Below are positions 246 to 60,274 of a stretch of DNA of 64,000 bases, piece by piece (positions within the stretch are counted from its first letter, which is position 1; each line of letters begins with the position of its first letter). The notes under the pieces are model-generated. The model did not search any database. It had not been told where the DNA came from and was given only the letters and a program-made list of their open reading frames with translations. Made by a program: the position numbers and the translations under genes. Origin of the DNA: the human T2T-CHM13v2.0 reference genome, Homo sapiens; NCBI RefSeq assembly GCF_009914755.1, contig NC_060926.1; one strand, given 5' to 3'.

Positions 246-355
246 CTTAGAGAATGTGTCATCCATATTATACTGGACAACTTCCAATAAAAAACCTGCC
301 ACATTTTCTAGGAAATAGGCTTGTCTGTTTCTTAATTTCAAGAGGCACATATAAC
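246..355 (-). pseudogene. S28 peptidase pseudogene copy B, exon 'L(C)..AYFLE..VVQYN'
   Basis: Minus strand: acceptor ttttctttcctacag|G, then LYVPLEIKK-(1-nt frameshift)-RQAYFLENVAGFLLEVVQYNMDDTFSK; donor degenerate (ataag for gtaag). VVQYN is an S28 motif. Phase fits the exon at 18661-18797 (AA|G = Lys). Confidence 0.8.
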
Positions 356-787
356 CTGTAGGAAAGAAAACACATTGAGCTTTCATGTCACTTGAGCTTC
401 AAAACCTAAATGTAGAAAACATCTCTAAATAAATAGACTCCAGGTTTCTTCAAAAAGTTGTTACTATGGAAGGAGTTATGGTCACTACTCTTAAGTTTTC
501 TAAATATCTTATGAATATAATTCTGTTCAGCATTTGTGTAACGCTACTGTTTTCCAAATGCTTCATTTAAACCAACTCATTTGGTTAAAAATGTCATATG
601 ACCATCTTTAAATATTAAAAAGGTATATTAGGATCTAAAACGTTTTTATACATTATCACTCAAACAGTATGAGTTAAAAAGTTTGGAGTGCCATTGATCA
701 TTGATCAATATTCATGAATTTTTTCTGAAGTTCATTTTTTTAACTGAATAAGTTATATAAGTTGACGTTTTATGATACTATGGTCTT

Positions 788-1089
788 TTTTTTTCTTTTC
801 TTTTTTTTGAGACTGAGTCTCACCCTGTTGCCCAGGCTGGAGTGCAGTGGCGCAATCTCGGCTCACTGCAAGCTCTGCCTCCCGGGTTCATGCCATTCTC
901 CTGCCTCAGCCTCCCAAGTAGCTGGGACTACAGGTGCCCACCACCACGCTCGGCTAATTTTTTGTATTTTTAGTGGAGATGGGGTTTCACCGTGTTAGCC
1001 AGGATGGTCTCGATCTCCTGACCTCATGATCTGCCCATCTCGGCCTCCCAAAGTGCTGGGATTACAGGCGTGAGCCACCGCACCCAGCC
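788..1089 (-). mobile_element. Alu (AluY-like)
   Basis: Full dimer with poly(T) on the left; gcaagctc/gccattctc AluY-type positions; TSD gatactatggtctt at 774-787 and 1090-1103. Confidence 0.95.
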
Positions 1090-1992
1090 GATACTATGGT
1101 CTTAAACAGATCATAATACATTACTCTTTTCTGTGTGCCATTATTCCTCCCCGATTTTTTTTTTTACATCTGTGTGATCATTTCAACCATCTACTTTGCC
1201 ACACAAAATCCATGTTTCTTAAAAACTCAGAATGCTGTTAATTCCTAATTACTACCCGCTTTTAAGTTTCCTTAATTATATGCTAAAATAAATGTATGCA
1301 TATAAAATGCTTAGAACAGTGCCTGGCTCACAATCAGTATTTAATAAATTATAGATATAATTATTATCAATAAGTTATATTTGCTACCTCTGCTTTATGC
1401 CTTTTAGAAGCACGATTTTAAAAATTCTTTAGCTGAGACTTTTAATTTTTATTTTTTGGCATTATTTAATATTTTGCTTTGTTTGTAAATCTACCATAAG
1501 GAATATGTGCAAAGACAAAGAACACTAGAAAACAGAGAAAATACTGAGCAATCCCCCATGTTCAAAACTGGTTTTGAGAAAAAAGCATTTTAAAAATTCT
1601 CCAACCTTCATTGCCTACTGCCTCTATCTAACTGCCGGAAAGATGTGGTGTACCTCTCATTATTAGTCTGCAATCTATCAGGCTATGTACACTATATAGT
1701 TCAGCAGTTCTAGTTCAGAGCAAATTAGCTTACACAAACAAAAAGCTGAGTCACTCTATAAGAAAACCAAGCCTTCCATTTTTATTTTTGGCATTGAAGC
1801 CCTGTTGCCTAGAGATTATGTTTACTGTAGAGTTAAAGAACGTTCATTTTCTTGGAACATTTCAGAAGAGGAGGTAACTCTCTGGGATGATGAGGTCATT
1901 TCTGAAGTTAACTGGGAGAGAAGTGAGTCTCTTGTAAGGGAAACAAGAACTTAGACGGAGCCCAAGTGAGCCGCAGAAAGGATCTTTCTTGG

Positions 1993-2313
1993 GTTTTTTG
2001 TTGGTTTGCTTTTGTTTTTGTTTGCTTTTGAGATGGAGTTTTGCTCTTGTTGTCCAGGCTGGAGTGCAGTGGTGTGATCTCAGCTCACTTCAACCTCTGC
2101 CTCCCTTGTTCAAGCAATTGTCCTGCCTCAGCCTCCCCTGTAGCTGGGATTACAAGCATCCACCACCACATCCAGCTATTTTTTTGTATTTTTAGTAGAG
2201 ATGGGGTTTCACCATGTTGGCCAGGCTGGTCTCAAACTCCTGACCTCAGGTGATCCACCCACCTCGACCTCCCAAAGTGCTGGGGTTACAGGCCTGAGCC
2301 ACCGCGCCTGGCC
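1993..2313 (-). mobile_element. Alu (AluS-like)
   Basis: Full Alu dimer; TSD atctttcttgg at 1982 and 2314. Confidence 0.95.
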
Positions 2314-2371
2314 ATCTTTCTTGGATTTCACCATGTAGACAGTAGTTTCCAATAGTTCAGTTTAGGCCATT

Positions 2372-57873: not shown

Positions 57874-58083
57874 CCTCAATGTAAACAGCAGGCAAATCTT
57901 TACTGATATCTTTTATGACTCCCAAAGCATGCCAAGGGTCAATGAAACCTTTGGCAAAGACAGTTTTGCTTCCTGTCACATTCAGGCCACCGTAGAACTA
58001 AGTGTGGCCTGAACAGCCTAAGCCACTGAAACATTATTGAAGTCAGGGCCCAAGATATCTGAACATTGCTGAAGAAAAAAAAT
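57874..58083 (-). pseudogene. S28 peptidase pseudogene copy A, catalytic-Asp exon
   Basis: Acceptor poly(T)gcag|, donor G|gtaac; LQQCSDILGPDFNNVSVA*AVQATL-fs-FYGGLNVTGSKTVFAKGFIDPWHALGVIKDISKDLPAVYIE(G); stop at 58018-58020; Asp codon at 57938-57940. Confidence 0.95.
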
Positions 58084-58249
58084 CTGCAAAAAAAAAAAAA
58101 TTATAGTTTTGATCAAGCAGGAATGAGGAGTTCAAGAAGGGTATAAAGAGAAAGATGGTGGAGATTAATTTTTGTGCTTTGTTTTCTTCTGATAATCTGG
58201 ATTTACTGGAATTACTAAAGAAACTTCTGTAACTAAAAAAAAAAGTTAT

Positions 58250-58490
58250 TGGATGGGTACAGTGGTTCATGCTTGTAATGTCAGTGCTCTGAGAAGCTGA
58301 GGTGGGGGGGATCTCTTGAGGCCAGGAGTTCGAGACCAGCCTGGGCCACATAGCGAGATCATATCTACAAAAAATTCTTTAAAAAGAAAAAATTAGCCAG
58401 GTGTGGTTGTGCGTTTGAGGTTACAGTGAGTTATGATCATGCCACTGCAATTCAGCCTAAGCAACAGAGCAAGAACCTGCCTCTCTAAAA
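58250..58490 (+). mobile_element. Alu (AluJ-like) with internal deletion in the right arm
   Basis: gtggttgtgcgt joined directly to tgaggttacagtgag. Confidence 0.85.
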
Positions 58491-60188
58491 GATAATAATA
58501 AGAATAAATTATTGAAAACCCAATGATCTCAGGTTCATTATTTCTCATGGAGACATCTCTTCCACATGCTAAATTATTAGTTTCTTGCCAAACACCTAAA
58601 GATACTGTGATACAGCAAGGTAGCTTTTCATTTGACCCATGCATATATTTCCATGAGAATGTTTATAAACATGATATTCTTTCTTACTCAGATGAAAGCA
58701 TGTGCTGAGATCCTATTCTCTAAACCTTAACTTCCTATGTACATAAGAAATGCTGGCTTCATACTTAGAGAAAAGTATGCATTTCTTAATCAAAGAACTC
58801 ATACACAACTCAAGATAAATCCCTAATACTGAATGAGTTCGTATTGGAAAAAGGTAGTACTACTTTCTTTCTAAATTCAGTTGTGATAGTGACCCTCCTT
58901 TAAAAGAAAAAGGGTGAAGAGAGGTAATAATCTTATGCAGTATACCTCTAAGTCAAAAGTGAACTTCTGGCTTCTTTGACTTTTTTTTTTTTTTAAGATA
59001 CAATTAGCCAGAGTTTGGATACAAGAAATGGAAAAAAAGTTAAAAGAAAGCAAGTAAGGTGTAAAAGCAAGATAACAATGGTTAGTTGCAAGAATTTGTC
59101 ATAACAATGAAAAATTGAAGAAAGAGAAAGGAAGGAGGAGAGAAACTTCCCTCCTGAATCCTGGGCTGGAGCTGGATGGGCAGTGAATCCAAACAAAACA
59201 AAAGGAGAAAAAGAGGCCTGGGCTCCTCACACCCAGCAGCCCAGAATGAAGAGACACACAGAGGTGCTGGCCCCTGTCCAGGCTCTTCATGCCTCCACCG
59301 AGGCACCACTCCAAAACAGGTGGCCTGGTGTGGATCTTTTGCCTTTCTAAACCAGGGCTGCATTCCTCCTCACTGGGGAGCTGAGAGGGTTGTGGAGCCA
59401 GAAAAGACAAACTATGTGCTTCACTTGGACATTTGGTAATTTTGTGTTATTTTATCCTCAAAATTTGAGAGAGAGACAGACATAAAAAATGGAGGTACAT
59501 GTGCACCACACACACACACAGAAAATCCTTCTGCTCCTCATATCAAAAAGAAAGAAAGAAAAAAGGAAAGGTAAGAGGAGGAAATAGGAAATCATTCTCC
59601 ATGTCTAGCAACCTCAATTTATAATGTGAACTTCCAAGAGCAGGGGTTATCCTTGGCTGAACCAAACCAATAAATAAGAACAAAAAAACACTAACAGATG
59701 AAGTGCAAGTTGGAGGCCTGGTGTCATTTCTCCAGCAAATCTTGCCTAATCTATAAAGGTAAAATATATAGATATCTTGCATTCTTTGATAAGAATGTGT
59801 ATTTTACTTACGTCTTTGGTGTAGCTTATGATCCTAATTTGGATTTTTTTAAATCAACACATCAAATATTTTGGGGAAACAAGTTTTAAATGAAGTATCT
59901 CAGTAATGCCAGCCGTTAGGACAGAGAATGCTAGTGTATACCCTCTCTTGTGTCACAGAGAGCCATTAATGTTTCTGATTCTCTGGAGTTTGATATCAAA
60001 ATAGAGTGAGTTAGAGAAACTGAATTTTAATTTTGTATTGTGACTTCTCAAACTTCCATCTGGAAAATTTCTCCATTAATTTTTCATTGATTTAGGCATG
60101 GCCAATCTGATGAATATAATTATTCCTTTAAACATAGAAACAATTTGCAGTTGTGGATTCTAGTGGCAAACAGAACTCAAATTCTTAC

Positions 60189-60274
60189 AGGGAATCCAGA
60201 GAAGGGCTGGTTCTTCGAACTCGTGCTCTGCTAGAAGCCAAATTCAGTGCAAGTCTGATAAAACCATTGCCTGG
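60189..60274 (-). pseudogene. S28 peptidase pseudogene copy A, 'RQW.YQTCTEFG' exon
   Basis: Acceptor ttttgctttctag|CC; RQWFYQTCTEFGF*QSTSSKNQPFSGFP then gtaaga; PRSS16 has RQWLYQTCTEFGFY; nonsense TAG at 60231-60233. Confidence 0.95.

What the first reader, a model, noticed from the sequence alone, without database searches (positions are those of the whole stretch)
246..60274. Hidden tandem pair of intron-containing S28 serine peptidase (PRSS16-like) fossil genes
Seen in the sequence: seven minus-strand exons, mostly invisible in the ORF track, translate across stops and frameshifts into successive S28 motifs, and most junction phases are compatible. In transcriptional order the C-terminal exons (RQWFYQTCTEFG 60.2 kb, DPWH 57.9 kb, HCAN and stop 56.7 kb) come BEFORE the N-terminal/middle exons (KSHP 20.3 kb, GGSYAG 19.9 kb, YLQVV 18.7 kb, VVQYN 0.3 kb). 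Known: the human functional S28 genes are PRCP, DPP7 and PRSS16. Inference: two head-to-tail unprocessed pseudogenes of an additional S28 lineage lost in this species. I cannot tell whether the locus is already annotated.
Basis: partly seen in the sequence, partly recalled or inferred. Interest (0 to 1): 0.9.

Follow-up and report, generated by a model that had tools for sequence, protein, structure and literature searches.

The report
Two dead S28 peptidase genes in tandem
Human chromosome 2 carries two head-to-tail, intron-containing wrecks of a fourth S28 serine peptidase gene line that survives in mouse lemur, colugo, elephants, sea cows, platypus, frogs and fish, so this is a real but ordinary case of ancient gene loss.

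Summary
All seven motifs sit where stated. Six lie in exons supported by Pfam Peptidase_S28 or a lineage HMM. 'KSHP' at 20.3 kb is a chance 4-mer in an intron, and the true exon 2 of that copy lies at 35.5 kb.

With 150 kb of flank, both predicted missing halves appeared on the minus strand:
- **Copy A:** 9 exons, window 56,703-87,868.
- **Copy B:** exons 2-9, window 35,670 down to -25,959.

Exons 2-9 of the two copies align pairwise at 66-82% DNA identity, in the same order and on the same strand. No third copy was seen.

Both copies are dead. A has lost its ATG and carries 4-5 stops and 2-4 frameshifts. B carries roughly 17 frameshifts or stops. No lesion was shared in the four cases compared.

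In trees, A is sister to a mouse-lemur 'K12H4.7' protein (72% identity). B groups with colugo, next to an afrotherian expansion. Human PRSS16 falls outside the whole vertebrate clade and has different intron positions.

The duplication is therefore old and the two copies died independently. RefSeq lists no gene here, and my paper searches found nothing on the locus. GENCODE could not be checked. Interest is moderate.

The parts
56703..56834 (-). Copy A, last coding exon (E9), 'GEAHCANLY...FLQKWLTNPSDR' plus stop codon. No internal lesion.
   Evidence: Lineage HMM i-E 3.5e-8. Pfam S28 E 0.0082. 30/42 identical to the mouse-lemur protein P0180. ORF end.
57872..58083 (-). Copy A, E8, 'FFLQQCSDILGPDF...FYGGLNVTGSK...DPWHALGVIKDISKDLPAVYIEG'. 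In-frame stop at 58020 and a frameshift at about 57999. The catalytic Asp codon (DPW) is kept.
   Evidence: Pfam S28 30.3 bits and E 4.4e-8. HMM i-E 3.8e-19. 58/71 identical to P0180.
60183..60275 (-). Copy A, E7, 'ARQWFYQTCTEFGF*QSTSSKNQPFSGFPVR'. In-frame stop at 60233. A 6-nt deletion removes the stretch that holds the GT donor in copy B.
   Evidence: 29.4 bits; 26/31 identical.
60276..64000 (-). Intron 6 of copy A, running out of the window. The rest of copy A lies beyond 64000 (window coordinates).
- E6 64090-64257: about 5 codons deleted.
- E5 69269-69358.
- E4 74529-74664: frameshift at 74601, acceptor AG lost.
- E3 75896-76138: GGSCAG, TGA at 76069.
- E2 81048-81242: one stop, or two compensating frameshifts.
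- E1 87677-87868: signal-peptide-like, ATG reads GTG, codon 3 reads TGA.
   Evidence: Pfam S28 72.2 bits (E3) and 54.3 bits (E2). Lineage HMM i-E from 1.8e-7 to 7.2e-21 for E1-E3 and from 1.3e-4 to 2.9e-4 for E4-E6. Alignments and lesions.
35515..35670 (-). Copy B, E2, '...[20 protein letters not shown]'. About 4 frameshifts.
   Evidence: HMM i-E 0.012. tblastn E 4e-5 to the colugo protein P0176. 71% DNA identity to copy A E2.
19784..20012 (-). Copy B, E3, with GGSYAG. One frameshift near 19850.
   Evidence: Pfam S28 E 7e-5. HMM i-E 1.1e-7. 74% DNA identity to copy A E3.
18663..18798 (-). Copy B, E4, 'YLQVVQRSLATHN...CPKVVKDTSDIIVERLKYPEGFAKLTVNF'. One frameshift at 18750.
   Evidence: HMM i-E 6.8e-5 and 0.41. 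31/45 identical to P0176. 70% DNA identity to copy A E4.
252..360 (-). Copy B, E5, '...QAYFLENVAGFLLEVVQYNMDD'. One frameshift.
   Evidence: HMM i-E 0.026. tblastn E 3.7e-4 to P0176. 66% DNA identity to copy A E5. No Pfam hit.
1..251 (-). Start of intron 5 of copy B, running out of the window. The rest of copy B lies before position 1 (window coordinates).
- E6 -8313 to -8085: two frameshifts.
- E7 -13499 to -13410: no lesion.
- E8 -17018 to -16736: two stops and a 7-codon deletion, or up to 6 frameshifts; DPW kept.
- E9 -25959 to -25804: 'SEGHCAD', two frameshifts.
   Evidence: HMM i-E 1.2e-4 (E6), 4.5e-12 (E7) and 3.7e-4 (E8). E9 is weak by protein evidence (E 0.5-3.5) but 162/211 = 77% identical in DNA to copy A E9 plus flanks. 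Pfam 23.3 bits for E7.
20261..20272 (-). It is not an exon but a chance 4-mer in intron 2 of copy B.
   Evidence: No Pfam hit for its ORF 20099-20299. No lineage-HMM hit. The motif also occurs on the plus strand.

Best explanation
The locus holds two unprocessed pseudogenes, copy A upstream of copy B, head to tail on the minus strand. They belong to a vertebrate S28 serine peptidase line that databases label 'putative serine protease K12H4.7' or 'thymus-specific serine protease-like'.

The ancestral gene had at least 9 coding exons. It encoded a protein with a signal peptide and the S28 triad: Ser in GGSYxG (exon 3), Asp in DPW (exon 8) and His in HCxx (exon 9).

The gene was duplicated in tandem before the human and mouse-lemur lines split, and probably before placental orders diverged. 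The two copies were then inactivated independently on the way to humans, B much earlier than A. Nothing here is expected to make protein today.

Shown: the exons, their order, the lesions, the duplication and the lineage placement. Inferred: the secretory or lysosomal peptidase role of the ancestor (from family knowledge), the timing, and the absence of any present function.
For: 1. Whole-genome Pfam PF05577 scan. Six exon hits lie on the minus strand of chr2:224.73-224.83 Mb, and 4 of them exceed the 25-bit cut-off (72.2, 54.3, 30.3 and 29.4 bits).

2. Lineage HMM. There are 23 minus-strand fragments at i-E <= 0.5, forming two series that each run colinearly through model positions 6-480 (A) and 95-442 (B). 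The best plus-strand hit is i-E 1.0.

3. DNA comparison of A and B. Eleven unique, colinear, same-strand matches were found. Exons 2-9 pair at 66-82% identity, flanking intron included.

4. Lesions.
- A: ATG to GTG, TGA at codon 3, stops in E3, E7 and E8, frameshifts in E4 and E8, a stop or two frameshifts in E2, a 5-codon deletion in E6, the E4 acceptor lost and the E7 donor deleted.
- B: roughly 17 frameshifts or stops over E2-E9, and E1 was not found.
- None of the four A lesions compared (E3, E7 and E8 stops, E4 frameshift) is present at the same place in B.

5. Trees.
- A is sister to Microcebus P0180 (SH-aLRT 100; 262/362 = 72% identity).
- B groups with Galeopterus P0176 (83-84), and that pair sits next to the afrotherian clade (97).
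- Platypus, amphibians and fish branch successively outside.
- An AU test rejects A+B as a clade (p 0.019).

6. No other copy of this line was found. The genome scan with P0180 puts its best hits at this locus and otherwise finds only PRCP, PRSS16, DPP7 and a PRCP-like processed pseudogene. No third copy lies in window -100 to -50 kb or 88 to 114 kb.
Against: - Pfam alone misses 3 of the 7 in-window exons. These rest on an HMM I built myself and on similarity to copy A.
- E9 of copy B has only weak protein evidence (E 0.5-3.5).
- Exon 1 of copy B was not found.
- A duplication confined to the primate-colugo group is not rejected (AU p 0.062), so 'before placental orders diverged' is only the favoured reading.
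- The frameshift counts for B come from a home-made aligner with fixed penalties and may be too high.
- P0180 is an N-terminally short predicted isoform, so its intactness is taken from the database.
- Synteny with the lemur, colugo or elephant genes could not be tested.
- Transcription, or an RNA-level role, could not be examined.
Confidence: 0.93

Rival explanations
1. A single S28 gene was split and reordered by a rearrangement or a misassembly, so there is no second copy.
For: Within the 64 kb window alone, each exon type is seen only once, and C-terminal exons precede N-terminal ones.
Against: With the flanks, every one of exons 2-9 is present twice, in the same order and on the same strand, at 66-82% DNA identity. 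The two copies also sit at different places in the tree.
Confidence: 0.01
2. One gene died first and the dead gene was then duplicated, in primates or later.
For: Both copies are dead and lie side by side.
Against: No lesion was shared in the four cases compared. A groups with an apparently intact lemur protein and B with an apparently intact colugo protein. An AU test rejects an A+B clade (p 0.019). A-B identity of 66-82%, intron flanks included, points to an old split.
Confidence: 0.03
3. Copy A is still a working gene, missed by annotation, that uses other exons or start sites.
For: A is much better preserved than B (417 of 481 model positions recovered, 72% identical to lemur). It keeps the Ser, Asp and His codons, and E5, E6 and E9 have no stop or frameshift. 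A 61-aa ORF from its exon 3 is present in protein collections as P0003, with no name given.
Against: The start codon is lost, stops lie in 4-5 of 9 exons, there are 2-4 frameshifts, and two splice sites are damaged. RefSeq lists no gene here (hub table).
Confidence: 0.02
4. The matches are chance similarity or derive from a repeat family.
For: Several motifs are only 4-5 residues long, and one of them (KSHP) is indeed chance.
Against: E-values reach 4e-17 with Pfam and 7e-21 with the lineage HMM. The plus-strand control is empty. The genome-wide scan finds such exons only here and at the three known S28 genes and one processed pseudogene.
Confidence: 0.01

Closest known systems
Predicted 'putative serine protease K12H4.7' / 'thymus-specific serine protease-like' genes of Microcebus murinus (P0180), Galeopterus variegatus (P0176), Afrotheria, platypus, amphibians and fish (names)
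   Same: Same gene line. Copy A is 72% identical to P0180 and sister to it. Copy B is 58% identical to P0176 and groups with it. All S28 motifs appear in the same order.
   Different: The human copies are broken by stops, frameshifts and lost splice sites. The named relatives are database predictions with open frames. Their function is untested, and their genomic positions were not available to me.
Human PRSS16 (thymus-specific serine protease, chr6)
   Same: Same Pfam family (PF05577). It is the nearest intact human paralogue, at 34% (A) and 38% (B) identity.
   Different: It falls outside the whole fish-to-mammal clade that holds the fossils. Only about 2 of about 8 intron positions coincide in HMM coordinates; for example, fossil exon 3 spans two PRSS16 introns. 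PRSS16 exons score at most 33 bits on the lineage HMM, against 73.5 and 67.8 bits for copy A exons.
Human unitary pseudogenes as a class (Zhang et al. 2010, PMC2864566)
   Same: Unprocessed, disabled, with no working same-line copy in the genome and with working relatives in other mammals.
   Different: This is a tandem pair rather than a single locus. A term search of that paper's main text (serine protease, peptidase, S28, 2q36, carboxypeptidase) gave 0 occurrences. Its supplements were not read.
S28 processed pseudogene at chr2:101,979,633-101,980,524
   Same: It is also a dead S28 sequence on chromosome 2 (E 4.5e-25).
   Different: It is intronless (model positions 1-196 are contiguous) and only 28-31% identical to this line. 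From recall, its motifs look like PRCP. It is unrelated to the tandem pair.

Membership tests
Peptidase family S28 (Pfam PF05577) | Significant match to the family profile | tested here: met
   72.2, 54.3, 30.3 and 29.4 bits against a 25-bit cut-off for four exons of copy A; 23.3 and 19.4 bits for two exons of copy B. S28 was the only or best Pfam family for 4 of the 9 ORFs tested.
Peptidase family S28 (Pfam PF05577) | Catalytic Ser (GxSxxG), Asp and His in that order | tested here: met
   Codons are present in A (GGSCAG, DPWH, HCAN) and in B (GGSYAG, DPWQ, HCAD). Assigning these motifs to the triad rests on family knowledge I recalled; no call tested it.
Peptidase family S28 (Pfam PF05577) | Intact reading frame able to give an enzyme | tested here: not met
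   A has at least 8 disabling lesions, including loss of the ATG. B has about 17. These are relics of members, not working members.
Vertebrate 'K12H4.7-like' S28 line | Branches inside the clade of named members, apart from PRSS16 and DPP7 | tested here: met
   Searches (45 rows; 26 rows): both copies lie inside the eutherian subclade (SH-aLRT 100), with PRSS16 outside the whole clade.
PRSS16 orthologue or recent PRSS16 duplicate | Groups with PRSS16 and shares its exon structure | tested here: not met
   The trees do not group them. Intron positions mostly differ. Caveat: only one PRSS16 sequence was used, it sits on a long branch, and it was assembled from HMM-aligned exon fragments.
Unprocessed (duplicated or unitary) pseudogene | Introns retained, with recognisable splice signals | tested here: met
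   Exons are spread over about 31 kb (A) and more than 61 kb (B). AG and GT signals are kept at many junctions.
Unitary pseudogene | No intact copy of the same line elsewhere in the genome | tested here: met
   Searches scanned the whole T2T genome and found only this locus plus PRSS16, PRCP, DPP7 and a processed pseudogene. The tool scores only its best candidates, so this is not exhaustive.
Unitary pseudogene | Intact orthologue at the syntenic place in other species | not testable with these tools
   Relatives with open frames exist, but no mammalian genome other than this one is held. One hint: residues 59-100 of the manatee model P0021 match intron 2 of copy B at 27937-28062 (52% identity, E 7e-8), and one search found no other copy in this genome of window 27900-28035, which holds most of that stretch.
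Tandem duplicate pair | Both copies carry the same exon set, colinear, on the same strand and adjacent | tested here: met
   Exons 2-9 are paired. The end of A (56,703) lies 21 kb upstream of B exon 2 (35,670).

The most novel reading that the evidence does not exclude
This is hidden paralogy. The genes of fish, amphibians and platypus that databases call 'thymus-specific serine protease / PRSS16' may be orthologues of the line humans lost at chr2q36, not of human PRSS16, with PRSS16 being a separate and older paralogue. Cross-species statements about 'prss16' would then compare different genes.

In favour:
- Human PRSS16 falls outside the clade of fish, amphibian, platypus and eutherian K12H4.7-like genes.
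- The decayed copy A is still closer to gar (50%) than PRSS16 is (42%).
- Most intron positions differ.
- A 2005 survey listed PRSS16 as not found in zebrafish (one passage of PMC1309616).

Against:
- Only one PRSS16 sequence was used, and it sits on a long branch.
- No non-mammalian PRSS16 was sampled.
- No fish exon structures or synteny were available.
Probability: 0.4. Interest if true: 0.55.

Novelty: new member of a known kind. Interest (0 to 1): 0.4.

Why it matters
- It adds a fourth S28 peptidase line to the human record, as a loss, alongside PRCP, DPP7 and PRSS16.
- It fills part of a 200 kb stretch where RefSeq lists almost nothing.
- It is a clean example of two old tandem paralogues dying at different times in one lineage while relatives keep or multiply them. 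Elephants and sea cows hold many copies.
- It warns that 'PRSS16' labels outside placental mammals may attach to the wrong paralogue.
- It changes nothing about human physiology unless residual transcripts turn out to have a role.

Tried and rejected
- **Word-based protein search.** The search with copy A exon 3 found nothing. The exhaustive HMMER search then found 1339 relatives.
- **Pfam on the raw stretches.** The scan failed because the translations held stop codons. It was redone on stop-free ORFs.
- **Frameshift-aware aligner.** The first version timed out and a faster one was used.
- **Protein Atlas.** A look-up with a PRSS16 exon gave no usable hit.
- **Names for short ORF records.** One search returned P0003, P0269 and P0002, and none carried a name; P0008 was not returned.
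- **Papers.**
  - 'K12H4.7' with 'pseudogene': 0 papers.
  - 'serine protease K12H4.7': 13 papers, none on mammals by title (listing only).
  - PRSS16, unitary pseudogene, paralog and gene-loss listings: nothing on this locus by title or abstract start.
  - PMC7695478: three passages on Prss16 expression, none on orthology.
- **Third copy.** I looked at -100 to -50 kb and 88 to 114 kb and found none.
- **Exon 1 of copy B.** It was not found between 36 and 56 kb.
- **The chr2:101.98 Mb S28 hit.** I considered it as a retrocopy of this line and rejected that, since identity is only 28-31%.
- **First report hand-in.** Those exons are now described inside two in-window intron parts.

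
Full report
**Observation.** A whole-genome six-frame scan with Pfam Peptidase_S28 hit the three known human S28 genes, on contigs 11, 6 and 9. From recall of their positions these are PRCP, PRSS16 and DPP7. It also hit an intronless S28 relic at chr2:101.98 Mb and six minus-strand exons around this window. Two of those six lie inside the window (60183-60275 at 29.4 bits; 57842-58000 at 30.3 bits) and one is a weak in-window hit (19839-19982, 19.4 bits). 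Two strong hits lie to the right of the window (75875-76138 at 72.2 bits; 81048-81245 at 54.3 bits) and one lies to the left (-13496 to -13407, 23.3 bits).

**Exon maps.** I fetched 50 kb on each side and later another 50 kb on the left. Copy A exon 3, read with X at its stop codons, found 1339 relatives in an exhaustive HMMER search. A follow-up search gave names to many of them: 'putative serine protease K12H4.7' or 'thymus-specific serine protease-like'. The named species are manatees, dugong, elephants, golden mole, elephant shrew, colugo, mouse lemur, platypus, amphibians and many fish.

I built an HMM from 115 of these proteins and ran it on all stop-to-stop ORFs of the 164 kb region. 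Of 35 minus-strand hits, 23 had i-E <= 0.5. None of the 10 plus-strand hits did (best 1.0). The 23 fragments form two colinear series.
- Copy A (window coordinates): E1 87677-87868, E2 81048-81242, E3 75896-76138, E4 74529-74664, E5 69269-69358, E6 64090-64257, E7 60183-60275, E8 57872-58083, E9 56703-56834.
- Copy B: E2 35515-35670, E3 19784-20012, E4 18663-18798, E5 252-360, E6 -8313 to -8085, E7 -13499 to -13410, E8 -17018 to -16736, E9 -25959 to -25804.

Exon 1 of copy B was not found. tblastn with four relatives, and then with the lemur and colugo proteins, gave the same map.

The 'KSHP' exon at 20261-20272 has no Pfam hit and no lineage-HMM hit. It lies in intron 2 of copy B, and the same 4-mer also occurs on the plus strand. 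The real 'EHR..G.S.P' exon of copy B is at 35.5 kb. Pfam alone also fails on the 18.7 kb, 0.3 kb and 35.5 kb exons. Those three rest on the lineage HMM, on tblastn (E 2e-10, 3.7e-4 and 4e-5 to colugo) and on DNA similarity to copy A.

**Tandem duplication, not rearrangement.** After filtering out repeats, blastn of the A region against the B region left 11 unique, colinear, same-strand matches. Local DNA alignments of each exon plus 60 nt of flank pair E2 to E9 at 71, 74, 70, 66, 68, 79, 82 and 77% identity, running into intron sequence and splice signals. Copy B is stretched by insertions: E4 to E5 is 18 kb against 5 kb in A, and E2 to E3 is 15.5 kb against 4.9 kb. No third copy was seen at -100 to -50 kb (all E >= 3.7) or at 88-114 kb. 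A genome scan with the lemur protein found its best matches only at this locus.

**Both copies are dead.** A frameshift-aware alignment to the nearest relatives, the junction sequences and the A-B alignments give the following.
- Copy A: the initiator reads GTG and codon 3 reads TGA. E2 has one stop in the continuous frame, or two compensating frameshifts. E3 has a TGA at 76069. E4 has a frameshift at 74601 and lacks the acceptor AG that copy B keeps. E6 lacks about 5 codons. E7 has a stop at 60233, and a 6-nt deletion covers its donor. E8 has a stop at 58020 and a frameshift near 57999. E5 and E9 show no stop or frameshift.
- Copy B: about 17 frameshifts or stops across E2 to E9. Only E7 is clean. 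The count depends on my aligner's penalties and may be high.

The Ser, Asp and His codons survive in both copies. Four copy A lesions could be compared with copy B directly: the E3, E7 and E8 stops and the E4 frameshift. None is at the same place in B.

**Which lineage.** I merged the HMM-aligned exon fragments into one gapped row per gene (417 of 481 positions for A, 237 for B). Human PRSS16 and DPP7 were added in the same way from their loci. IQ-TREE trees with 45 rows and 26 rows agree.
- A is sister to the mouse-lemur protein (SH-aLRT 100; 262/362 identical).
- B groups with the colugo protein (83-84; 138/237 identical).
- That pair is sister to all afrotherian sequences (97).
- Platypus, amphibians and fish branch outside in species-tree order.
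- PRSS16 lies outside the whole clade, with or without DPP7 in the tree.

An AU test rejects A and B as each other's closest relatives (p 0.019). It does not reject a clade of A, B, lemur and colugo (p 0.062). The duplication therefore predates the human-lemur split. An origin before the placental orders diverged is favoured but not proven. End branches (A 0.30 against lemur 0.12-0.13; B 0.77-0.82 against colugo 0.16-0.17) indicate that B has decayed far longer than A.

PRSS16 is a long branch with an unusual amino-acid make-up, so its placement needs care. Intron positions give independent support. In HMM coordinates PRSS16 exons break near 55, 90-95, 132, 173-177, 199-205, 306-313, 360, 420 and 458-469. 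The fossils break near 55, 113-117, 196, 240, 275-289, 346, 376 and 443-450. Only about two positions coincide.

**Is it known?** RefSeq lists only a UBA52 pseudogene in the window (hub table). My literature searches turned up nothing on a mammalian K12H4.7-like gene or on this locus. The main text of the 2010 unitary-pseudogene survey contains none of five relevant terms, and I did not read its supplements. GENCODE, Ensembl and pseudogene catalogues could not be consulted, so I cannot say the locus is unannotated everywhere. A 61-aa ORF from copy A exon 3 is present, unnamed, in public protein collections (P0003).

**Verdict.** This is a real tandem pair of unprocessed pseudogenes of a fourth vertebrate S28 line, lost on the way to humans. 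It is a solid annotation gain and a tidy evolutionary case of a well-known kind. The boldest reading still open is that 'PRSS16' in fish, amphibians and platypus is really this lost gene.

Noticed in passing
G000:C2:101979633-101980524 (locus L001), outside the window: An intronless S28 relic with several stops (Pfam E 4.5e-25, model positions 1-196 contiguous). It is only 28-31% identical to the K12H4.7-like line. From recall, its motifs look like PRCP, so it is probably a processed PRCP pseudogene.
   Followed up: partly
window 27937-28062, minus strand (intron 2 of copy B): Residues 59-100 of the manatee gene model P0021 replace the normal exon 2 and match this intronic stretch at 52% identity (E 7e-8). 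One search found no other copy in the human genome of window 27900-28035, which holds most of the stretch, while the 28035-28100 part recurs at nine other loci. This may be an exonised intron piece in the manatee model, and it hints at locus homology.
   Followed up: partly
protein list (no window coordinates): Afrotheria hold many distinct members of this line. In the listed top 120 there are about 16 entries for Loxodonta, 6 for Trichechus manatus, 8 for T. inunguis, 7 for Dugong, 3 for Elephas and 3 for Chrysochloris. This points to a lineage-specific expansion of a gene that humans lost.
   Followed up: no
proteins P0004-P0020 and others: Many unnamed proteins of about 800-1200 residues carry two S28 domains in tandem, matching the query in two stretches. 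They are either natural double-domain proteins or fused models of tandem genes. Their taxa are unknown.
   Followed up: no
proteins P0269, P0002 and P0008 (unnamed records): These short ORFs are 92%, 83% and 63% identical to copy A exon 3, and all read on into the same intron sequence ('GEYTFN...'). P0002 has Arg where human has the E3 stop, but Thr in place of the nucleophile Ser. P0008 has GDSYAD. They look like the same exon decaying in other mammals.
   Followed up: partly
window 56265-56310: A (GT)n/(CA)n microsatellite lies just downstream of the last exon of copy A, seen as runs of 'CVCVCV'/'THTHTH' in the ORF list.
   Followed up: no
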